IMG/VR virus record: IMGVR_UViG_3300001200_000009
Source: a virus
Length of the DNA: 64,000 bases
Reading direction: 5' to 3' (one strand)
Below the pieces are notes generated by a model. It did not search any database. It was not told where the DNA came from and worked only from the letters and a program-made list of their open reading frames with translations. Positions 3,161 through 63,300 of this stretch are shown piece after piece (position 1 is the first letter of the stretch; every line of letters begins with the position of its first letter). A program made the translations under genes and the position numbers.

Positions 3161-3406
3161 CTAACTAATATCTTCTGTCGTTAACACGGTCCTAAACTCA
3201 TCAGTTGCGCCGGAAAAAATATTCACAGACGATATAGAGTTTTTTCTAAGTATTCCTAAAGCATCTGCTTCTGATAAGGCAACTTCTATTGTGCCTTGAC
3301 TATCACAGATATTCCATCCAGGATAAGTGAATTTATGTAAGAATTCTTTTATGTGAAGGGTTCCATTCTTCGAGGCCTGTCGTATAATAATGTCTTGTGC
3401 GTTCAT
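3161..3406 (-). CDS. Hypothetical protein
   Basis: GGAG SD, early promoter (gtaaac 3449-3454). Confidence 0.6.
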   Translation of the reverse strand: MNAQDIIIRQASKNGTLHIKEFLHKFTYPGWNICDSQGTIEVALSEADALGILRKNSISSVNIFSGATDEFRTVLTTEDIS

Positions 3407-3465
3407 AATAAATCTCCTATTGATAGTATATACTATTCAAGAAGCAATGTAAACGATTAAATGAT

Positions 3466-3539
3466 TGGTTGACCCCGGAGGAATCGAACCTCCATCTTCT
3501 GGCTCAAAACCAGACGTACCTCCATTAAACTACGGGTCA
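3466..3539 (-). tRNA. tRNA-Gln(TTG)
   Basis: Cloverleaf, TCTGG-TTTTGAG-CCAGA, CCA. Confidence 0.93.
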
Positions 3540-3540
3540 A

Positions 3541-3614
3541 TGGAGGTACGTATGGGATTCGAACCCACGTAACTGGATTTGCAATCCAGCGCGTCACCAC
3601 TCCGCCAACGTACC
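3541..3614 (-). tRNA. tRNA-Cys(GCA)
   Basis: CTGGA-TTGCAAA-TCCAG, CCA. Confidence 0.93.
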
Positions 3615-3628
3615 TATAAGAAACCTAT

Positions 3629-3703
3629 TGGCTCAGGTGGTTGGATTCGAACCAACGACACACCGGTTAACAGCCGGATGCTCTACCACTGAGCTACACC
3701 TAA
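3629..3703 (-). tRNA. tRNA-Asn(GTT)
   Basis: CCGG-CTGTTAA-CCGG, CCA. Confidence 0.93.
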
Positions 3704-9695: not shown

Positions 9696-10079
9696 TTATC
9701 TGTAAGATTTATACTTACGTTTACCATTGCCGATATTTTTAGCTCTATGTGTGTCCGTTTGACAATGACAGTTAGGACAAACAAATTCTGTGTTTTCTAT
9801 ACAGTTGTTGAGTGCATCACCATCAATATGATTAACCTCTAAAACTAATGGCTTTCCTTGCCAAATACCTGGATTAAAACATACTGAACACGAATATCCT
9901 TTATGTTCTATTAGCAGATTTCTGGTCCACTCTCCAGTTCTATAGAATAATGATTTCCCTACATATTTTCCGTTAAGATAATTTTCTCTTTTCGTAGCAC
10001 TTTGAAATGCCTGTTGACATTTGTTGCTACAATAAGAAGAATTAGTAGTTTCTTCATTACAAAATTTACAATTATTCAT
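9696..10079 (-). CDS. HNH endonuclease
   Basis: CSVC, LEVNHIDGDALNN, VCPNCH; TATAAATA just upstream. Confidence 0.88.
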   Translation of the reverse strand: MNNCKFCNEETTNSSYCSNKCQQAFQSATKRENYLNGKYVGKSLFYRTGEWTRNLLIEHKGYSCSVCFNPGIWQGKPLVLEVNHIDGDALNNCIENTEFVCPNCHCQTDTHRAKNIGNGKRKYKSYR

Positions 10080-16059: not shown

Positions 16060-17142
16060 TTAGTACTCCCAGCGTGTTTCACCGAACATTTCGGCAAGTT
16101 CATCCACGCGGTCTTGTTTGATAAGACGCTTGTTCATGTAGTCCATTATGACCTGCATCGGAGAATAATTTCCTCGCTCTCGCATTTTGAACCAAAGTCC
16201 TTGAAGGGGCTTTGCTACTTCCTTGAGTACGAACATCGCAAAGTCCTTTTGACTCAATAGAGCATACATATCGCAGTCGGTGTCAGCTTCGATAGCCACA
16301 CGACTCATGACTTCATGGAAGCCTTTGATGTATTCCTTCAATCGCTCGCGGTCTTCTTCGTTTACCGACGCCACAAGGTCATCCACCACGCCTTCGAAGA
16401 TGCAACGAATCACATTGATTTCGCGTTCAAGCATAGCCTTTGCGCGATGAAGGGTAACGTACTCATCGGCCTTAATTTTGATACGGTGACCGTTAGGCCA
16501 AACAACTACGACACCTTCGTCTCCTTTTAGAGCTTTAACCCGTTCAAGAAGTTCTTGTGGGGTTTCATTCATACCTTGCCAGTCAAGACCAATATATTCG
16601 CCTGTTTTCATATGTCGAACAGCTAATAATTGCAATTGTGGCTTTTCATATTTTACTACAATCCTATTATTTGGAGAAACGAATTCATACAGCGGAGTAT
16701 ATCCGTTAAGAATATAGCTTAGCATTTCAGCTTCAAGATTTGGCGTCATTGCGGTGTCATAAGCTAATTGAGCTTGTTCAGAAAATCCTGCCCTAGTCAT
16801 AAGTCTTATTTGTTTTGGACCGTATGGTAATAAAACTGGATGAATCATTGAGCCATCCCATTTCGTCTCTACTGAAGCAACTATGTCCCAATCAAGTTCG
16901 TCGATTCCTTGCTTCTCAAAGAGATTAAAGAACTTGTGGAATGGTCGAGCGATGATGTTACCATCGAGGTCGAATTTAATGCCACGAGCTTCAAGCGCTT
17001 CCGGAATATCGAAAGTTGTTGGTGTCACGAATTGATAATTGATGACTTGGAAGCCTTCTTCCTCTTTGACATTAAGAGTAATTCCCTCAACGTCTTGGAC
17101 AAATGGCCAAATATCGTCGATGTGATTGATGACTTTAAACAT
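16060..17142 (-). CDS. RNA ligase 1 (T4 RnlA-like)
   Basis: EARGIKF, KFFNL, TKWDGS, LYEF..NRIVV, EGVVV, IKIKADEY. Confidence 0.9.
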   Translation of the reverse strand: MFKVINHIDDIWPFVQDVEGITLNVKEEEGFQVINYQFVTPTTFDIPEALEARGIKFDLDGNIIARPFHKFFNLFEKQGIDELDWDIVASVETKWDGSMIHPVLLPYGPKQIRLMTRAGFSEQAQLAYDTAMTPNLEAEMLSYILNGYTPLYEFVSPNNRIVVKYEKPQLQLLAVRHMKTGEYIGLDWQGMNETPQELLERVKALKGDEGVVVVWPNGHRIKIKADEYVTLHRAKAMLEREINVIRCIFEGVVDDLVASVNEEDRERLKEYIKGFHEVMSRVAIEADTDCDMYALLSQKDFAMFVLKEVAKPLQGLWFKMRERGNYSPMQVIMDYMNKRLIKQDRVDELAEMFGETRWEY

Positions 17143-34722: not shown

Positions 34723-34793
34723 CCAGCCCGCTTTACCACTAAGCTATAACCCCGGAATGCGGAATTAGGAAGAATCGAACTCCCGACGGCCAG
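34723..34793 (-). ncRNA. Circularly permuted tRNA-like module (YrlA-like topology)
   Basis: Order: T arm, TAATTCC-loop-GGGGTTA acceptor, D arm; closed by CTGGCC/GGCTGG. Confidence 0.75.
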
Positions 34794-45789: not shown

Positions 45790-45864
45790 TGGCGCTAAAG
45801 GATGGACTCGAACCACCGACTTCCGCGCTCCAAACGCGGAGCTCTACCACTGAGCTACACCCTG
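45790..45864 (-). tRNA. tRNA-Pro(TGG) with largely unpaired acceptor stem (possibly pseudo)
   Basis: CCGCG-TTTGGAG-CGCGG; CAGGGTG versus CTTTAGC. Confidence 0.7.
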
Positions 45865-45869
45865 TTGTA

Positions 45870-45944
45870 TGGTCCTAGGCAAGAGATTTGAACTCAATCC
45901 TCCAGATTCACAGTCTGGCCGTCAACCATCGACATCTACCTAGG
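45870..45944 (-). tRNA. tRNA-His(GTG), A73, no encoded G-1
   Basis: CCAGA-CTGTGAA-TCTGG. Confidence 0.88.
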
Positions 45945-47445: not shown

Positions 47446-47666
47446 CTTATTACTTTAACTTCGCCTAAAAGAAACATATGAGTAAAAGCTCAAAGTTAAC
47501 GATAACCAATCGAAGCTTATTCTCGGGATGGTTAATCCCTACCTTAGCTCTCTGAAACTTTACTAATATGTTTCCTTTATTCTCTATTAGTATAAACTAT
47601 TGAGAATGCTTTGTAAACAAAAAAATCACCACAAAGTGAAAAAGTTTTGTGGTGATTGAATTTAGC

Positions 47667-47762
47667 GAGACAAATCCTAAAGCTGGAGCTTTAATATGTG
47701 GGCATCGAGTTTGACGTCGTAGCCCACGGACGTGTTAGAAGTAAGCGTTTAGATAGCGTCTC
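47667..47762 (-). ncRNA. GCUAU/GAUUU motif RNA, copy C
   Basis: GAGAC/GTCTC, GCTAT/GATTT loop, CTAAA/TTTAG, CGCTTACTTCTA. Confidence 0.7.
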
Positions 47763-47770
47763 TATGGGGG

Positions 47771-47964: not shown

Positions 47965-50139
47965 TTAGTCCTCAATATGGTCGATGTATTTATCCATGAA
48001 CTCATCGACGTTAGTGTCAAAGTCGAATACTACATCTGCATTCGAACGCTCATCTACTTGCTGTGAACCGCTTCCAAGTACTACCATTTCAGCAATCCAA
48101 CCTAGAGTTGGCTTCTTGTCAGGCATTCCAAGGAATAGCTCGGCATATTGCTTAAGGGTTTCGATATTACCCTCAATGTTACGAGAACCTTCACCAGACG
48201 AGTCAAGGTAGATGATTTTCTCATTCACCAAGTCGAAGATGAGTGGCATAACATTCCGAACTGGTTGGTCAAGAACGAACTTGGACTCAACAGTCGCTGG
48301 TTCAAAAAGTTCTCCCGAACCTAGCTTAGCTCGTTTCATGAAGCCTGCAAAGCAATTCATTGTGCTGAATGGCTCTCCAGAATATGAAAGGATTTGTGGA
48401 ACTACATAACGAGCTCCGCCTTTCAGAAACTTCGAAACGTTAAAGTCGATATATTCGGTAGCTCCATTCCAGCCAGACGTAATGTCTCCAGAATGGACAG
48501 CTTCGAATTCGCCGCGAAGATTGGTGTATGACACTTGAACAACTTGGTTCCAGTTCTCGTCGTAAGCTGCCATAGAAAGGTCAACATCACGAGCTTTCGA
48601 CCAGTGGACGAATAAACGAACCACTTCTTTATGGTCAAACGGAATCGCGCTACCTTTTTCGATAGGTGTAGACGAATCGGAGTCTCCACGCTTGTTGTAT
48701 GGAAGAACACGACCAAACAGGTCAGGGTCAATCCAGACTTTACCTAGTGAAGGCATCTTGGCGTATTGAGATAGCAAATGTCCATAAATTCGATTGCAAA
48801 CTGAGTCGCAGATTCGTTGAGCAATTGGAGCTCGATAATCTTCCGCGAACTTTACCGAATTACGAGTGCCCTTAGGAATAAAGAAGCGTTTGTCATCCGA
48901 ATTCCGATTACGGAAGTGGTAATACAATTGCATCAGAACTCGGTTCTTTACGTCTGGCATAATTTCATAGAATGCCGAAAGAACTTTGTCTGGGTCGCTA
49001 GAGTGATGAGTTGCCTCAAATCCAGCTTTCATCATTTCATCGCCAAATTTCGAACCAGTAGCTTTTGGAGGTTTTGGACCTCGAACAAGAGCGTCAAGAT
49101 GGCGAGCAAATAGGGTTGGACGCGACTTCATTAGTTTTGCGTCAAAGGGCTTAGTGCCTTCTAACATACCATGAAGTTGACGATTGAATGTCCATACAGA
49201 CTTAGGCGCGTTACGAAGAACGTGATACGCTTGAGCAGTTTTTGGATAGCGTGATGAACGACGTGGAGATGCAGGATGGATGTTCTCGCCAAGACGTAAG
49301 AACTTCTCACGATGACGAAGCAAATCTTCTTCGATGTTACTCATGCTTTCGAGCAATTCAAACACTAAACGACGTTGAGGCGATTTCAATTTGAATCGAA
49401 CCTTTGTCGACAGCGAAGTGTCAGCCTTGTTGTCGGTTAGATAGGCCGCGATGCGTAGAACATCAACCGCTCCAGACATTTGAGTCTGTAGGATTGCAGA
49501 AATTCGAGGGACTGGCCACTTCGAATCGAACAAGAGACCAGCAACAATCGGCAAGTTCTCTTTGTAGATTAGGCCTTTGATATCGGCCGCCCCAATTTTA
49601 TCAAGCGTATCGCGAACTAGAATTTTTTCTTTGCGCGATAGCGATGTTTGGGAATTCAACTTTTCGTTGATAACTTTCGCCATATCGTCTTCAGTAAAGA
49701 AGGTAAGGACCTTAAGGTCTACTGGCTCGTTGAAGGTAATTCCAGAGCTTGGAGGTACGACACCACGGTCTGACACGAATGTCCACTTGTTAGTTTGGGT
49801 ATTGAAGCCCATTCCAATACCTAGTCCAAGACCATAAGTCTCGGTAAGCGCGTACGAATACATGTCTGGAATATCGTTGGGGAAAGTTGGGAATAGAATA
49901 TTGTGGGCTACATCAGCACCAGTTAATTCTTTGGCAGTCTCAACAAAGTTAGCGTAGAACGAAAGTAGTTGAGATTGGTCTGATAGGAACAATGCGGAAA
50001 TCAGCTTTCCGTCTGGCTTATAGCCAAATTCGACCATCTGAGATACGATAGCACCAATCAAGCCTGTATTGCTTTTGTCGTAGACCTTTAAGGCTGGAAT
50101 AAAGAATACTCCGCCTAGTAGCGAAATCGTATTTTTCAT
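47965..50139 (-). CDS. Large Ter-system-type protein: alpha-helical N-region plus C-terminal TerD-like domain
   Basis: RPTLFARHLDALVR; FVHW..DVDLS..HSGDITS..ATEYIDF TerD-like motifs. Confidence 0.65.
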   Translation of the reverse strand: MKNTISLLGGVFFIPALKVYDKSNTGLIGAIVSQMVEFGYKPDGKLISALFLSDQSQLLSFYANFVETAKELTGADVAHNILFPTFPNDIPDMYSYALTETYGLGLGIGMGFNTQTNKWTFVSDRGVVPPSSGITFNEPVDLKVLTFFTEDDMAKVINEKLNSQTSLSRKEKILVRDTLDKIGAADIKGLIYKENLPIVAGLLFDSKWPVPRISAILQTQMSGAVDVLRIAAYLTDNKADTSLSTKVRFKLKSPQRRLVFELLESMSNIEEDLLRHREKFLRLGENIHPASPRRSSRYPKTAQAYHVLRNAPKSVWTFNRQLHGMLEGTKPFDAKLMKSRPTLFARHLDALVRGPKPPKATGSKFGDEMMKAGFEATHHSSDPDKVLSAFYEIMPDVKNRVLMQLYYHFRNRNSDDKRFFIPKGTRNSVKFAEDYRAPIAQRICDSVCNRIYGHLLSQYAKMPSLGKVWIDPDLFGRVLPYNKRGDSDSSTPIEKGSAIPFDHKEVVRLFVHWSKARDVDLSMAAYDENWNQVVQVSYTNLRGEFEAVHSGDITSGWNGATEYIDFNVSKFLKGGARYVVPQILSYSGEPFSTMNCFAGFMKRAKLGSGELFEPATVESKFVLDQPVRNVMPLIFDLVNEKIIYLDSSGEGSRNIEGNIETLKQYAELFLGMPDKKPTLGWIAEMVVLGSGSQQVDERSNADVVFDFDTNVDEFMDKYIDHIED

Positions 50140-50162
50140 GATAATCTCCATCATAATATTAA

Positions 50163-50230
50163 AGCGTCAAATCCTAAAACTGAGTTTTTTCAGAATAAAA
50201 GTTAGAAGGAAGTGTTTAGATAGCGACGCT
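50163..50230 (-). ncRNA. GCUAU/GAUUU motif RNA, copy D (5' leader of the TerD-like gene)
   Basis: AGCGTC/GACGCT, GCTAT/GATTT, CTAAA/TTTAG; early promoter 50271-50276. Confidence 0.7.
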
Positions 50231-50294
50231 ATTCTGTATTTGAGATTATAATATCATACCGGTCTGGCATGTAAACGATTAAATTCATTTTTGG

Positions 50295-61033: not shown

Positions 61034-61424
61034 TATTAAGGAAGCTCAAATCGATTTCATCTTCGTCAAAATCTCCAGATTCTACTCTAGCTTGGGCTCT
61101 TTCTCTAGCTTTTCTAAGAACTGTCATCTCAGAGCTAATGCTCATCAAAGCTTTGAGGTGAACTTCGGTCACCTTATGCCTATATGATTTCGCGATTTTG
61201 GTGTGTATAAACATATGGCAAAACTTGCAAAGCGTCACTCCATTGCTTACTGTAAATCTAAGAAGAGGATGATATTTGGCGCTTCGAATATGATGGGCTT
61301 CGCGTGTCTGTCGGTCTCCACAGCATTTACATACTCCGTCTCGACGGATAACGTAAATTTTCCAAAGCCTATAAGCCTTAGTTCTGCGCCAGTGTTTAGT
61401 TATAGGGGGAAGAGTGATAGTCAT
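61026..61424 (-). CDS. HNH endonuclease
   Basis: CKCC, EAHHI..SNGVTLCKFCH. Confidence 0.85.
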   Translation of the reverse strand: MTITLPPITKHWRRTKAYRLWKIYVIRRDGVCKCCGDRQTREAHHIRSAKYHPLLRFTVSNGVTLCKFCHMFIHTKIAKSYRHKVTEVHLKALMSISSEMTVLRKARERAQARVESGDFDEDEIDLSFLNND

Positions 61425-62353
61425 TACATATTGCCGTATACGAATTCGAGTGCTCGATTCGCTTCTTTAATTATTGGTCTTGTTTTGAACCGATTTTTCT
61501 GATAACGCTGGTCAATTTGGCGGACCAGAGTTTCGAGTTCTTCAGCAGTAATCGGATAGCCCTTTTTGACCGCAATGCCGGCGATTGAACACATCAACTG
61601 GAATAAGAATCGGTAACGTCCATCATTGAGCGCTGCATATTCCATCACCAATTCTTCGCGTACGAACGGACAGTCACGATAGTCTGTCCATTGGAACGTT
61701 TTAGTAAGAGTAGCTTTACGCTGATTGAGAATTTCTTCTTTCAGCTGTGGCGGTAGATTGTCAAAAAAGTTAGATGCGGTTGGAGTATATTCGTGACGAC
61801 TCATTAACTCTTTAGGGTCTAAGATTGGACCTTTATTTGTGAAGATGAAATTGTAGGCGTCTGGATATTGACCTGGAATGTAATACATCCGTGAAAGGTC
61901 TTTTGTCGATTCGTCTCCTTCTCCCAAATACTCTTGATTGAGTGCGAACCAAAAATGACTGATGTCATCACGATGGACAGGTTCGGTAAGAGGAAATACT
62001 AGTCTGAATTTAGGATGTTCTTTGGTTGAAGAAGCAGTTGAATAGCAGACGTAGTAGTTGTCTTGAATTCCTGCTATGAGCTCGTCGTATGAGCATTCAT
62101 AGTCATCAACATCGAGCGCGGCCCAACTACACCATTCCATGACATTACGATTTGCTCGAGTAGTCCCTTCCTCATAGGATGCAGGACTTATTAGAGGAGC
62201 ATCGCCCTTTGAAGGCTTCTCGCCCTTTGGAGTTTTGCGGGTCCTCTTCTTATGAAGGGAATAGAGTAAATCCTCGAGTCCTTGAAAGTCCTCAAAGAGC
62301 ATGGTCTTATGCGTCTTATTGTCGAAGATGTTTTTGAATATGGTGAGTTGCAT
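61424..62353 (-). CDS. Primase-polymerase (AEP)-like protein
   Basis: LISPA, ALDVDD, YSTASS..PKFRLVFPL. Confidence 0.7.
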   Translation of the reverse strand: MQLTIFKNIFDNKTHKTMLFEDFQGLEDLLYSLHKKRTRKTPKGEKPSKGDAPLISPASYEEGTTRANRNVMEWCSWAALDVDDYECSYDELIAGIQDNYYVCYSTASSTKEHPKFRLVFPLTEPVHRDDISHFWFALNQEYLGEGDESTKDLSRMYYIPGQYPDAYNFIFTNKGPILDPKELMSRHEYTPTASNFFDNLPPQLKEEILNQRKATLTKTFQWTDYRDCPFVREELVMEYAALNDGRYRFLFQLMCSIAGIAVKKGYPITAEELETLVRQIDQRYQKNRFKTRPIIKEANRALEFVYGNM

Positions 62354-62602
62354 TGAAGTCCAAAAAGGCTAGGTCCGAAGACCTAGCAAGTTTAAGGGGA
62401 GAATGTGCAAAATCGACTTCCGCACTTGTATATTATAATCTATTTCGAATGGAATGTAAATACGAAAAATCCTCCTAATCAAATGAATTAGGAGGACTTA
62501 ACGGAGGATAACCAATGGAGATGATTTCCTCAAGGCCACCTTACGGCGACTCCACCATCCGACTTTTGGGAGATAAGAGGTGTCGGAGGACCTCTATTTT
62601 GA

Positions 62603-62734
62603 AGAGTCAAATCACGCTGCTAAAAAGGCGCTCTACCACTGAGCTATCCTCCCATAAAGGTGGGAGGAGTGGGATTCGAACCCACGACCCGCTGCTCCGA
62701 ATGCAATAGAAGTAAGCGAACATATAGCGACTCT
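62603..62734 (-). ncRNA. GCUAU/GAUUU motif RNA, copy B, with permuted tRNA module (62628-62692)
   Basis: AGAGTC/GACTCT; T arm, TCCTCCC-loop-GGGAGGA, D arm. Confidence 0.8.
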
Positions 62735-62741
62735 ATTTTAA

Positions 62742-62880
62742 AGGACTAAATCATACAGCTAAAAAGGCTCGGTGCGTTTACCATTTCGCCACCCTCCGCA
62801 TGGTTAGCCGAGGGGCAGGACTCGAACCTGCAAATACCGAGTTTGACAATATTAGAAGTAAACGTGTATATAGCAATCCT
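62742..62880 (-). ncRNA. GCUAU/GAUUU motif RNA, copy A, with permuted tRNA module (62768-62841)
   Basis: AGGATT/AGTCCT; CTCGG, T arm, CCCTCGG-loop-CGGAGGG, D arm, CCGAG. Confidence 0.8.
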
Positions 62881-63064
62881 ATTCTTTATATCCTAAATAA
62901 ACTTTAGCATGCCATTCGATAAATTCTTCGATTTCATTGCCGCTTTTGATGAATGTTTGAAGCTCATCATAGTCCCAGAATTCACCTAAAGTTTCAGGAA
63001 TAGTAAACTCATTATCTCTCATAAGAGTCAAAAAAGCTTTAAATCTTTCTGTTTTGATAGCCAT
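62879..63064 (-). CDS. Hypothetical protein
   Basis: Small ORF immediately upstream of copy A. Confidence 0.55.
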   Translation of the reverse strand: MAIKTERFKAFLTLMRDNEFTIPETLGEFWDYDELQTFIKSGNEIEEFIEWHAKVYLGYKE

Positions 63065-63300
63065 TAGAACAAATCCATTTCAGCGAAAAACATGTCGCCA
63101 TGGAATTCAGAAACTTCAAATTCCTTATCAGCTCCCATAAAGTGAACCGTAAATTTGTCACCAACTTTAGTTGCTTGACCCGAAATAATGTCTTTTTGAA
63201 AGAATTTGATAGGCATGTAATATCTCCATTTTACTATTCTAGTATATACTATGGAGCTAGAATGTAAACAACAAAATGCATTTTATTTCTGGAGACATTG

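What the first reader, a model, noticed from the sequence alone, without database searches (positions are those of the whole stretch)
62603..62880. Tandem circularly permuted tRNA modules (YrlA/Y-RNA-like)
Seen: in both units the tRNA 3' half (variable loop, perfect T arm, 3' acceptor strand) lies upstream of the 5' half (5' acceptor strand, D arm). The acceptor stem is closed by a short loop and there is no anticodon loop. In copy A the anticodon stem (CTCGG/CCGAG) connects to the flanking motif. Established: this topology characterises bacterial YrlA Y RNAs. No recognisable canonical Ro60/TROVE gene is in the window. Inference: elbow-presenting tRNA mimics acting as decoys for tRNA-targeting defence nucleases or as tethers in RNA repair/decay.
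Basis: partly seen in the sequence, partly recalled or inferred. Interest (0 to 1): 0.8.

Follow-up and report, generated by a model that had tools for sequence, protein, structure and literature searches.

The report
Permuted tRNA mimics on Y-RNA-like handles
The two back-to-front tRNA look-alikes are real; each is the variable "cargo" of a small RNA whose conserved stem ("handle") recurs in many phages and bacteria beside the gene of a possibly Ro60-shaped TerD-domain protein, which suggests an undescribed cousin of the Ro60/Y-RNA particle.

Summary
Observation confirmed, on the minus strand. There are two tandem units (62881-62741 and 62735-62602). Each holds variable loop, T arm, hairpin-closed acceptor stem and D arm, with no anticodon loop.

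Interpretation partly supported. The architecture is Y-RNA-like, but these are not demonstrable YrlA members:
- Rfam YrlA scores 35.7 and 21.3 bits against a cut-off of 69.
- The genome has no TROVE gene.
- The GNCGAA motif is absent.

Instead, each module sits inside a conserved "handle": stem P1, a CUAU x RAUUU internal loop, stem P2, a CUUCCUU bulge, then CUA/UAG. Two more handle copies flank a 729-aa gene (47965-50154).

A covariance model built only from other phages finds all four window copies. It also finds 215 copies in 75 of 80 phage loci and 131 copies in 80 bacterial loci that encode this protein. All lie on the gene's strand, and almost all lie beside the gene. Rfam 15 has no such family.

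The protein has a C-terminal TerD domain. For its helical domain, the best three of 48,161 PDB chains are Ro60 structures (Z 8.3-10.6), but there is no sequence similarity and Foldseek is not significant.

Best reading (about 0.6): partner RNAs of a Ro60-like RNP that display a tRNA elbow. RNA-protein binding is untested.

Earlier scan notes on this same genome gave the handle and TerD leads. Nothing was found on other DNA.

The parts
62741..62881 (-). Unit B: a complete handle RNA. Layout: P1 AGGAUUG/UAGUCCU, CUAU x GAUUU loop, P2, (U)UUACUUCUA strand, tRNA-like cargo, UAG.
   Evidence: Model R1 matches end to end (positions 1-74) with an 80-nt apical insert: 14.5 bits, E 1.5e-3. The MFE fold shows the long closing stem.
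62768..62841 (-). Unit B cargo: a circularly permuted tRNA-like module with closing stem CUCGG/CCGAG.
   Evidence: Sequence read directly. Rfam YrlA 21.3 bits over model 23-86. Module alignment and pair counts.
62602..62735 (-). Unit A: a complete handle RNA. Layout: P1 AGAGUCG/UGACUCU, CUAU x GAUUU loop, P2, CUUACUUCUA strand, tRNA-like cargo, UAG.
   Evidence: R1 positions 1-74 with a 77-nt insert: 16.7 bits, E 3.5e-4. Fold. P1 and P2 differ from unit B by compensatory changes.
62629..62701 (-). Unit A cargo: a permuted tRNA-like module with canonical U8, A14, G18 G19, the T-loop UUCGAAU and a G15:C48 equivalent. The 3' strand of the closing stem is missing.
   Evidence: Rfam YrlA 35.7 bits over model 27-81. 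blastn hits to unannotated permuted modules in phages Atuin, BRock and RcXuper.
62500..62601 (-). Structured tail of the same transcript, role unknown. It holds a P1-like hairpin (62598-62573) and a stretch complementary to the 5' acceptor strand of unit A.
   Evidence: Folds. Weak P1-only R1 match.
62467..62499 (-). Intrinsic-terminator-like hairpin (14 pairs plus a U run) that ends the RNA locus.
63241..63268 (-). Nearest upstream promoter-like site (TTTACA-16-TATACT). The transcript would carry two small ORFs (63216-63064 and 63064-62879) and then units B and A.
   Evidence: Consensus match only.
50162..50231 (-). Handle RNA copy D, with a short cargo. It lies between a promoter-like TTTACA...TATAAT sequence read in the DNA and the start of the 729-aa gene.
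   Evidence: R1 39.6 bits, E 1.2e-8 over the whole window. Sequence.
47965..50154 (-). Gene of the 729-aa protein P0001: a helical domain (about residues 141-500), possibly Ro60-like, plus a C-terminal TerD domain (about 507-674). It is the candidate protein partner of the handle RNAs.
47666..47763 (-). Handle RNA copy E. Its roughly 55-nt cargo is not tRNA-like. It lies downstream of the gene and a 63-aa ORF, ahead of a hairpin-plus-T-run read in the DNA.
   Evidence: R1 20.1 bits, E 0.004. Sequence.

Best explanation
What it is. The region encodes two tandem small non-coding RNAs on the minus strand. They are probably cut from one transcript that ends at the terminator at 62499-62467. Each RNA has two parts.

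Part 1, the constant handle:
- stem P1, formed by the 5' and 3' ends
- an internal loop, CUAU opposite RAUUU
- stem P2
- an unpaired pyrimidine strand, CUU(A/C)CUU
- a short CUA/UAG closure

Part 2, the variable apical cargo. Here it is a circularly permuted tRNA body: closing (anticodon-like) stem, variable loop, T arm, hairpin-closed acceptor stem and D arm. This body can form the D-loop/T-loop elbow but cannot decode.

How I think it works (inferred):
- The handle is the binding site for the phage's 729-aa protein (47965-50154). That protein combines a helical domain that may be ring-like, as in Ro60, with a TerD domain. Its own gene is flanked by two further handle RNAs.
- The RNP then works like Ro60/Y RNA. 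The handle docks the RNA on the protein.
- The interchangeable cargo acts as adaptor or gate. The tRNA-like cargo would bring in, or compete for, enzymes that recognise the tRNA elbow or acceptor end: RNase P, CCA-adding enzyme, modification enzymes, RNA ligase or repair enzymes, and exonucleases.
- This would happen during infection by a phage that carries about 20 tRNA genes and an Rnl1-type RNA ligase.

Shown here: the anatomy, the covariation, the family-wide gene linkage and the TerD fold.

Suggestive only: the resemblance of the helical domain to Ro60.

Inferred: RNA-protein binding, RNA processing and the cellular role.
For: Anatomy in the window:
- Each unit folds with a long closing stem. 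P1 and P2 differ between A and B by compensatory changes.

The handle is a family:
- Model R1 was built from 32 copies in other phages only. It finds all four window copies: 39.6 and 20.1 bits, and 16.7 and 14.5 bits for units A and B, end to end around the tRNA-like inserts.
- In 81 distinct bacterial copies not used for the model, 92% of cells pair, against 59% in shuffles and 42-52% when the partner is slid. P2 shows all four Watson-Crick pair types at every position. The phage training set gives the same picture.

Linkage to the protein gene:
- 215 R1 hits (E <= 0.01) in 80 phage loci that encode a P0001 relative. All are on the gene strand. Nearly all lie within about 1.3 kb upstream or 1 kb downstream. 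75 of 80 loci have at least one.
- 131 hits in 80 bacterial loci follow the same rule.

tRNA-like cargo recurs:
- The same permuted tRNA cargo sits in handles next to the gene in at least 9 other phage loci and 4 bacterial MAG loci.
- One locus has a tRNA-like cargo in normal order, with UUCG in place of the anticodon loop.

Parallel with Ro60:
- Permuted modules like unit A lie next to true TROVE genes in phages Atuin and BRock.
- One lies next to a P0001 homologue in RcXuper.

The protein:
- The AF2 model is confident (pLDDT 87).
- The C-terminal domain is TerD (Z 14.8; Foldseek E 1.4e-5).
- For the helical domain alone, the top three of 48,161 PDB chains are the three Ro60 structures. Z is 10.6, 9.5 and 8.3, with 265-282 of 360 residues aligned. 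The next hit has Z 7.1 over 147 residues.

Context and expression:
- One bacterial homologue sits beside RtcA and two RlaP genes.
- The phage has an Rnl1-type RNA ligase.
- In a Paenibacillus relative, contigs from RNA libraries cover the handle RNAs and the gene, with nothing upstream.
Against: - No experiment or RNA data exist for this phage. Only DNA runs hold it.
- RNA-protein binding is inferred from gene linkage alone.
- Units A and B lie 12 kb from the protein gene, not beside it.
- The Ro60 resemblance is weak by other measures: no Pfam TROVE match, an hhalign probability of 0.13% against a TROVE alignment, no PDB sequence hit, and no significant Foldseek match for the helical domain (phiLo Ro60 at rank 41, E 0.47). 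The tool itself warns that Z below about 13 can be a generic arrangement for helical repeats.
- Unit A lacks the 3' strand of the closing stem, so its L-shape may be less stable.
- My phage training copies and tRNA modules were pre-selected for complementarity, which inflates the percent paired. The first permutation test was only modestly discriminating.
- Handles in the gene's leader could be purely cis-regulatory.
Confidence: 0.6

Rival explanations
1. They are ordinary YrlA-type Y RNAs, bound by a canonical Ro60. That Ro60 would be encoded either in the missing roughly 12% of the phage genome or by the host.
For: Rfam YrlA matches both units over the tRNA-like domain. Unit A scores higher (35.7 bits) than modules that lie beside true TROVE genes in BRock and Atuin (31.7-32.8 bits), so a sub-threshold score does not exclude membership. 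The genome record is only 88% complete.
Against: No TROVE match in 159 kb at E <= 1. No GNCGAAN0-1G motif. The stems that would bind Ro60 are instead the handle shared with the RNAs that flank P0001 and with hundreds of copies beside P0001 relatives. Around the TROVE genes of BRock and Atuin, R1 gave only one chance-level match (9.5 bits, E 0.8, in BRock).
Confidence: 0.1
2. The handle is mainly a cis-acting operator through which the TerD protein regulates its own mRNA. Units A and B are then titrating copies (sponges) or evolutionary by-products, and the tRNA-like cargo has no adaptor role.
For: Handle copies very often sit in the 5' leader, directly before the start codon of the gene: window copy D and many loci at 9,700-10,000. 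Most cargos are short hairpins, with a median of 19-28 nt.
Against: Arrays of 2-5 copies occur, and copies also lie downstream of the gene. Units A and B are 12 kb away, behind their own promoter and terminator. Elaborate, covarying tRNA-like cargos recur independently in phages and bacteria, which argues for selection on the cargo.
Confidence: 0.12
3. They are free-standing tRNA mimics that act without a dedicated protein. They could be decoys for host nucleases or defence sensors that recognise the tRNA elbow or acceptor arm, or processing signals for RNase P and RNase Z.
For: The elbow nucleotides are canonical. Several homologous modules keep an ACCA after the acceptor 3' strand. M. smegmatis YrlA is cut by RNase P and gains CCA (PMC4201824, read). 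A third permuted module at 34793-34723 has no handle.
Against: This does not explain the conserved handle or its strict linkage to one protein family. With no anticodon loop, the RNAs cannot serve as decoys for anticodon nucleases.
Confidence: 0.1
4. It is a decayed or intron-containing tRNA array. The 5' half of unit B plus the 3' half of unit A would make one tRNA with a 65-nt insert. Alternatively, these are permuted tRNA or tmRNA genes matured into working molecules.
For: Rfam tRNA scores 36.3 bits (cut-off 29) over 62798-62661, with acceptor 6/7 and anticodon stem CCGAG/UUCGG 5/5. There are weak tmRNA_permuted and cyano_tmRNA hits.
Against: ARAGORN finds no tRNA or tmRNA. There is no anticodon loop. 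The 65-nt 'insert' is the 3' handle strand of B plus the 5' handle strand of A, both under covariation. Single, non-tandem permuted modules inside handles occur elsewhere, for example L125 and L109. The tmRNA scores are 16.6 bits, against cut-offs of 47 (tmRNA_permuted) and 70 (cyano_tmRNA), and there is no tag frame.
Confidence: 0.03

Closest known systems
YrlA / bacterial Y RNAs with Ro60 (Rsr) (Rfam RF02553; Chen et al. 2014, PMC4201824)
   Same: - A stem formed by the 5' and 3' ends carries a tRNA-like domain: T arm, loop-closed acceptor stem and D arm, with the anticodon stem leading into the protein-binding stem.
- Several RNAs per locus, often in tandem, and often among tRNA genes.
- Modular logic: a constant protein-binding stem plus a variable effector module.
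- Occurs in both bacteria and phages.
- The partner protein is predicted to have a helical domain most similar to Ro60.
   Different: - The handle sequence and structure are unrelated to the Ro60-binding GNCGAA/GGUCCGA helix.
- Rfam score is only 21-36 bits against a cut-off of 69.
- There is no TROVE gene.
- The linked protein shows no sequence similarity to TROVE and carries TerD where Ro60 has a vWA domain.
- Most family members carry short hairpins rather than tRNA-like cargo.
Phage Ro60 homologues (e.g. Thermus phage phiLo Ro60, PDB 9l5y, PMC12135203; Ro-like genes of actinophages Atuin and BRock)
   Same: A phage-encoded protein, possibly ring-shaped, lies next to permuted tRNA-like RNAs inside tRNA gene clusters. 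phiLo Ro60 is the best structural match to the helical domain of P0001 (Z 10.6).
   Different: Those proteins are bona fide TROVE+vWA. Their flanking RNAs showed no significant handle match (best R1 hit 9.5 bits, E 0.8).
TerD-domain proteins of the Ter stress/phage-resistance system (PDB 3ibz, 2kxt, 2qz7)
   Same: The C-terminal domain of P0001 has the TerD fold (Z 13.7-14.8). Some homologues match Pfam TerD.
   Different: Classical TerD proteins are about 190-aa stand-alone, Ca-binding proteins found in ter operons. Here TerD is fused to a 500-aa helical domain, the gene is not in a ter operon, and it is flanked by structured RNAs.
Permuted tRNA genes of Cyanidioschyzon merolae and two-piece (permuted) tmRNA genes
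   Same: The same circular permutation: the 3' half (T arm, 3' acceptor strand) lies upstream of the 5' half, joined across the acceptor ends.
   Different: Those genes mature into working tRNA or tmRNA with an anticodon loop or a tag frame. Here there is neither, and the open end of the module continues into the handle.

Membership tests
YrlA (Rfam RF02553) | Reaches the family's gathering score (69 bits) over the whole model, including the Ro60-binding stem | tested here: not met
   35.7 bits (model 27-81) and 21.3 bits (model 23-86); only the tRNA-like part matches. Caveat: modules beside true phage TROVE genes also reach only 31.7-32.8 bits.
YrlA (Rfam RF02553) | tRNA-like domain with T arm, loop-closed acceptor stem and D arm, and no anticodon loop | tested here: met
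YrlA (Rfam RF02553) | Encoded within about 2 kb of a Ro60/TROVE (rsr) gene | tested here: not met
   No PF05731 match at E <= 1 in the 159-kb record (88% complete). Neighbouring ORFs have no TROVE domain.
YrlA (Rfam RF02553) | GNCGAAN0-1G motif near the 5' end (the proposed Rsr contact; PMC4201824) | tested here: not met
   No match in 62900-62470. The strict motif is also absent from the BRock and Atuin intergenic regions, so the test has limited power.
YrlA (Rfam RF02553) | Bound by Ro60/Rsr in vivo | not testable with these tools
   Needs immunoprecipitation.
Handle RNA family defined here (model R1) | P1, CUAU x RNUUN loop, P2, CUU(C/A)CUU bulge, CUA...UAG, matched end to end by a model built from other genomes | tested here: met
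   Unit A 16.7 bits (E 3.5e-4) and unit B 14.5 bits (E 1.5e-3), both over model 1-74, filters off, 601 nt searched. Copies D and E score 39.6 and 20.1 bits.
Handle RNA family defined here (model R1) | Lies on the same strand as, and directly beside, a gene of the P0001 (TerD plus helical domain) family | tested here: inconclusive
   The strand is the same, but units A and B are 12 kb from the gene. Copies D and E do flank it. Elsewhere the rule holds for 215 of 215 phage hits and 131 of 131 bacterial hits as regards strand, and for nearly all as regards adjacency.
tRNA (RF00005) | Contiguous cloverleaf in canonical order with a 7-nt anticodon loop | tested here: not met
   ARAGORN makes no call. 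The 36.3-bit Rfam hit joins halves of two different units across 65 nt of handle sequence.
Permuted tmRNA (RF04321, RF01851) | Gathering score, a tag reading frame and an Ala-type acceptor | tested here: not met
   16.6 bits against a cut-off of 47. ARAGORN finds no tmRNA. Unit A has G3:C70.
Ro60 / TROVE (for the linked protein P0001) | Sequence match to the TROVE domain (PF05731) | tested here: not met
   No Pfam hit at E <= 0.1. 0 of 39 homologues match TROVE. hhalign probability 0.13%. No PDB sequence hit.
Ro60 / TROVE (for the linked protein P0001) | Helical-repeat ring fold like Ro60 | tested here: inconclusive
   With VIA-align, the three Ro60 structures rank 1-3 of 48,161 chains, with Z 10.6, 9.5 and 8.3 over 265-282 residues. 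Foldseek is not significant (E 0.47), and these Z values lie within the range the tool flags as possible for generic helical repeats.
Ro60 / TROVE (for the linked protein P0001) | C-terminal vWA domain with a MIDAS motif | tested here: not met
   The C-terminal domain is TerD instead.

The most novel reading that the evidence does not exclude
A second system of the Ro60/Y-RNA kind, so far unnamed. A protein with a helical domain that may be ring-like (fold possibly related to TROVE, with TerD in place of vWA) works with its own family of modular 'handle' RNAs. The RNA cargos are swappable and include permuted tRNA mimics. The system is widespread in large phages and in bacteria such as Bacillus, Paenibacillus and Listeria. 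In this phage it would be used for tRNA or RNA surveillance or repair during infection.
Probability: 0.5. Interest if true: 0.9.

Novelty: new variant of a known kind. Interest (0 to 1): 0.78.

Why it matters
Ro60/Y-RNA particles are the only known case in which a ring protein uses small modular RNAs as adaptors. How the tRNA-like YrlA domain is used remains unclear.

If the reading here is right, several things follow:
- Nature has built the same device at least twice, or TROVE has a relative diverged beyond sequence recognition, with TerD taking the place of vWA.
- A large protein family currently annotated as 'hypothetical' or 'TerD family' gains a concrete function. It has 2,257 cluster representatives at E <= 1e-3 and members in Bacillus, Paenibacillus, Listeria and many jumbo phages.
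- Hundreds of unannotated structured RNAs, absent from Rfam 15, are defined.
- Because the same permuted tRNA mimic attaches to two different handle/protein systems, the tRNA elbow looks like the functional cargo. That makes the open question of what YrlA's tRNA domain recruits testable by comparison.
- Cultured systems exist for experiments: Rhodobacter phage RcXuper, Rhodococcus phage Weasels2, Xanthomonas phages XacN1 and Xoo-sp13, Paenibacillus and Bacillus.

Tried and rejected
Searches that found nothing useful:
- Relatives found through the neighbouring ORF 61424-62353 (65 IMG/VR loci, about 50% identity) carry no permuted module upstream. Synteny at this spot was therefore uninformative.
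- An exact-pattern scan of IMG/VR with the A/B flank consensus gave two chance hits inside coding sequence.
- TROVE was sought in the genome, by Pfam on P0001 and 39 homologues, by profile against PDB sequences and by hhalign against 21 Ro60 proteins. All were negative.
- Foldseek against the PDB found only the TerD domain for the whole model and nothing significant for the helical domain.
- Rfam 15 at relaxed thresholds has no family on the handle copies of the window. At its gathering thresholds it has none on six phage and bacterial loci.
- An RlaP match in the phage's own genome was not significant (12.8 bits).

Tests that were weak or inconclusive:
- My first permutation test of the handle pairing was too permissive: mean 11.7 against 10.8 of 13 pairs. 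I replaced it with covariance-model searches and pair counts on an independent bacterial set.
- Expression: only three DNA runs from one algae-metagenome sample hold this phage, and no RNA run does. RNA-library contigs of a Paenibacillus relative show presence only, not level or ends.
- Conserved neighbours of the bacterial genes: none beyond the RNAs. The RtcA/RlaP context is a single contig.

Practical points:
- The search for related loci on genome contigs failed with the 39-sequence alignment and worked with a 12-sequence one.
- Complex prediction was not used, because it takes no RNA chain.

Readings rejected (see rival explanations): an intron-containing tRNA, a permuted tRNA gene and a permuted tmRNA.
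Full report
**1. The observation**

All 16 tRNAs that ARAGORN calls in this window lie on the minus strand. The finding must be read on that strand too. Reading 5' to 3' there are two tandem units.

Unit B (62841-62768) runs:
- CUCGG, then a 5-nt variable loop
- T arm GCAGG-UUCGAGU-CCUGC
- 3' acceptor strand, a 9-nt loop, then the 5' acceptor strand
- UG, then a 3-bp D arm with a GG-containing loop
- A, then CCGAG

Unit A (62701-62629) has the same order:
- T arm GUGGG-UUCGAAU-CCCAC
- a perfect 7-bp acceptor hairpin, UCCUCCC/GGGAGGA
- D arm GCUC-AGUGGUA-GAGC

Neither unit has an anticodon loop. The closing stem CUCGG/CCGAG is present in B. Unit A keeps UUCGG but has lost the partner strand, a 5-nt gap in the A/B alignment.

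ARAGORN calls nothing here. Rfam's tRNA model gives 36.3 bits only by joining the 5' half of B to the 3' half of A across 65 nt. Rfam YrlA matches each unit over its tRNA-like part alone, at 35.7 and 21.3 bits against a cut-off of 69. A 44-nt pattern across the acceptor hairpin has zero expected chance matches. My scan of the whole 159-kb genome finds only three convincing modules of this topology: A, B and one at 34793-34723.

**2. What surrounds the modules**

Folding each unit with its flanks gives a long stem made by its 5' and 3' ends:
- an outer helix: B AGGAUUG/UAGUCCU, A AGAGUCG/UGACUCU
- a conserved internal loop, CUA(U) opposite (G)AUU(U)
- an inner helix: B UAUACA/UGUAUG, A UAUGUU/AGCGUG

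Both helices differ between A and B by compensatory changes, while the loop and a pyrimidine strand (C/U)UUACUUCUA stay constant.

Earlier notes of this scan on the same genome (unchecked AI notes) pointed to two more copies of this motif, flanking a 729-aa ORF. I checked them:
- Copy D (50231-50162) lies between a promoter-like TTTACA...TATAAT sequence and the ORF start.
- Copy E (47763-47666) follows the ORF and a small 63-aa ORF, ahead of a hairpin-plus-T-run.

**3. The handle is a family**

I started from homologues of the 729-aa protein (P0001) and fetched 80 IMG/VR loci. Most show tandem copies of GGCUAU-N7-9-CUUCCUUCUA on the gene's strand, just before or after the gene.

I aligned 32 short copies from other phages (A3). 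They support this structure:
- P1 (7 bp)
- CUAU x RNUUN internal loop
- P2 (7 bp)
- CUUCCUU bulge
- CUA/UAG closure

In that alignment 91% of cells pair, against 59% in shuffles, and the covariation score is 0.85 against 0.19. Those copies had been pre-selected for complementarity, so I repeated the test on independent data (below).

A covariance model built from them (R1) contains no sequence from this window. Its results:
- Copy D: 39.6 bits, E 1e-8. Copy E: 20.1 bits.
- With filters off, unit A scores 16.7 bits and unit B 14.5 bits. Both match end to end, with the tRNA-like module as a 77-80-nt apical insert.
- Across the 80 phage loci (1.55 Mb, both strands) it gives 215 hits at E <= 0.01. 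Every one is on the gene's strand and almost all lie within about 1.3 kb of the gene. 75 of 80 loci have at least one.

The protein family is also common in bacterial genomes. At least 559 relatives were found, in Bacillus, Paenibacillus, Listeria, Niallia, Achromobacter, Verrucomicrobia, Acidobacteria and others. R1 finds 131 copies in 80 such loci, again all on the gene's strand and adjacent to the gene.

On 81 distinct bacterial copies that were not used to build the model:
- 92% of cells pair, against 59% in shuffles and 42-52% when partners are slid.
- P2 is 98% paired, with all four Watson-Crick pair types at each position.

Rfam 15 has no family on these RNAs. My full-text searches found no paper linking TerD proteins to such RNAs or to TROVE.

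**4. The cargo**

Most handles carry a short hairpin, with a median of 19-28 nt. A minority carry a tRNA-like body. The same permuted order, with a 4-5-bp closing stem, occurs in:
- phage loci L085, L104, L109, L116 (two), L123, L125, L136, L137 and L138
- bacterial MAG loci L194, L209, L226 and L228

Some acceptor stems are capped by UUCG, so these cannot be two adjacent tRNAs. In an 18-module alignment all helices covary. The closing stem, which played no part in selecting the modules, is 80.6% paired. One locus (L123, 3391-3525) carries a tRNA-like cargo in normal order, with UUCG replacing the anticodon loop. What stays constant across these cargos is the elbow-bearing body, not its connectivity.

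**5. The protein**

P0001 has no Pfam match. Among its homologues, 4 of 39 match TerD and 10 of 39 match Prok-RING_4. The AF2 model is confident (pLDDT 87).
- Residues about 507-674 form a TerD domain (Foldseek 3ibz, E 1.4e-5; VIA Z 14.8).
- For the whole model, the next best PDB matches are the three Ro60 entries, with Z 7.3, 6.2 and 5.8 over about 300 residues.
- For the helical domain folded alone (residues 141-500, pLDDT 85), the same three Ro60 entries are ranks 1-3 of 48,161 chains:
  - Thermus phage phiLo Ro60: Z 10.6
  - D. radiodurans Rsr: Z 9.5
  - Xenopus Ro60: Z 8.3
  - each with 265-282 residues aligned; the next hit has Z 7.1 over 147 residues

Against this:
- hhalign sees no similarity to a TROVE alignment (probability 0.13%).
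- Foldseek is not significant for the helical domain (phiLo Ro60 at rank 41, E 0.47).
- AlphaFold DB clusters label structural relatives 'TerD family', 'ZorC EH domain' and 'DUF4132'.

I therefore treat 'Ro60-like ring' as suggestive, not established.

**6. The parallel with Ro60**

blastn with the region hit unannotated spots in three cultured phages.
- In Atuin and BRock these are pairs of permuted modules next to true TROVE genes.
- In RcXuper the module lies upstream of RCXUPER_7, which is a P0001 homologue (E 1e-48). Two divergent handle copies lie between them.

So the same kind of tRNA mimic is attached to two different protein and handle systems. The TROVE-linked phage modules also reach only 31.7-32.8 bits on Rfam YrlA, so the Rfam score alone cannot decide membership. 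The deciding features are the handle and the partner gene.

**7. Context**

- The genome has no TROVE gene.
- It has an Rnl1-type RNA ligase at window 16558-16992.
- The bacterial genes have no conserved neighbours apart from the RNAs.
- One MAG contig places a homologue beside RtcA, two RlaP genes and a DUF4132 protein. RlaP is an RNA-repair nucleotidyltransferase (bioRxiv 10.64898/2025.12.29.696909).
- No RNA data exist for this phage.
- For a Paenibacillus relative, contigs from four RNA libraries cover the two handle RNAs and the gene from about position 2815 on. Nothing is covered upstream. This shows presence in RNA libraries, nothing more.

**8. Verdict**

The two modules are real. Each is the cargo domain of a member of a conserved, covarying and apparently undescribed RNA family that is genetically tied to a TerD-domain protein with a possibly Ro60-like helical domain.

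The most likely mechanism is a Y-RNA-like RNP in which the handle docks on the protein and the tRNA-like cargo acts as adaptor or gate for enzymes that recognise the tRNA body. RNA-protein binding, RNA processing and the biological role are inferred.

They work like YrlA but fail the testable membership criteria. I file them as a new variant of the Ro60/Y-RNA kind.

Noticed in passing
window 34723-34793 (-), transcript about 34815-34565: A third permuted tRNA-like module. It has a G3:U70-type acceptor, D arm GCUU/AAGC and closing stem GGCC/GGCU, and sits directly after a TTTACA-17-TATATA promoter. Rfam YrlA gives 22.8 bits. It has no handle. A GGCGAAG (GNCGAA-type) motif lies just 3' of it, and about 150 nt of further hairpins follow before ORF 34561-34205.
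   Followed up: partly
window 62500-62601 (-): A structured tail between unit A and the terminator. It contains a P1-like hairpin (UAGAGG...CCUCUUA) that may be a vestigial third unit, and GGUUAUCCUCC, which is complementary to the 5' acceptor strand and U8-A9 of unit A. The whole-locus MFE fold pairs these two.
   Followed up: partly
window 62368-62460 (-): A promoter-like site (62460-62432) is followed within about 50 nt by a strong terminator-like hairpin (62387-62368), just upstream of ORF 62353-61424. This could be a very short transcript or an attenuator-like leader.
   Followed up: no
window 45800-45858 and 45874-45943 (-): Two Rfam tRNA hits (45.6 bits over model 7-64 only, and 38.4 bits) that ARAGORN does not call. 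They may be atypical or truncated tRNAs inside the tRNA cluster.
   Followed up: no
L136 8925-8940, L138 7035-7050, L104 9680-9695; window 62767-62759: The linker after the closing stem of the permuted modules looks like the 5' part of an anticodon loop: CUCAUAA in L136 and L138, CUUUUUA in L104, CCUUUUUAG in the window. This hints that the cargos arose from real tRNA genes opened at the anticodon loop.
   Followed up: no
L123 3391-3525: A handle RNA whose cargo is a tRNA-like body in normal (not permuted) order. It is attached through the acceptor stem, and UUCG replaces the anticodon loop.
   Followed up: partly
L238 1-233 (Rhodobacter phage RcXuper, record 3400-3632): An alpha-proteobacterial-type permuted tmRNA (Rfam 64.2 bits, above its cut-off) lies immediately upstream of the permuted tRNA-like module and the P0001 homologue.
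   Followed up: no
window 16558-16992 (-) (G000:C1:90631-91065): An Rnl1-type RNA ligase (PF09511, 46.3 bits) within a 371-aa open frame. The phage has tRNA-repair-type chemistry available.
   Followed up: no
L232 176-7424: In one bacterial MAG contig, the P0001 homologue lies beside RtcA, two RlaP nucleotidyltransferases and an 830-aa DUF4132/DUF7737 protein. DUF4132 proteins are also structural neighbours of the P0001 helical region.
   Followed up: partly
alignment A1; L167 1696-4962: Some homologues carry extra modules: Prok-RING_4 in 10 of 39, and an N-terminal ankyrin-repeat fusion in one cyanobacteria-like (Sericytochromatia) MAG.
   Followed up: no
window 47700-47712 and 62852-62840 (-): Copy E and unit B share the linker GUCAAACUCG after the CUUCUA strand, although their cargos differ. 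This suggests cargo exchange within a shared frame.
   Followed up: no
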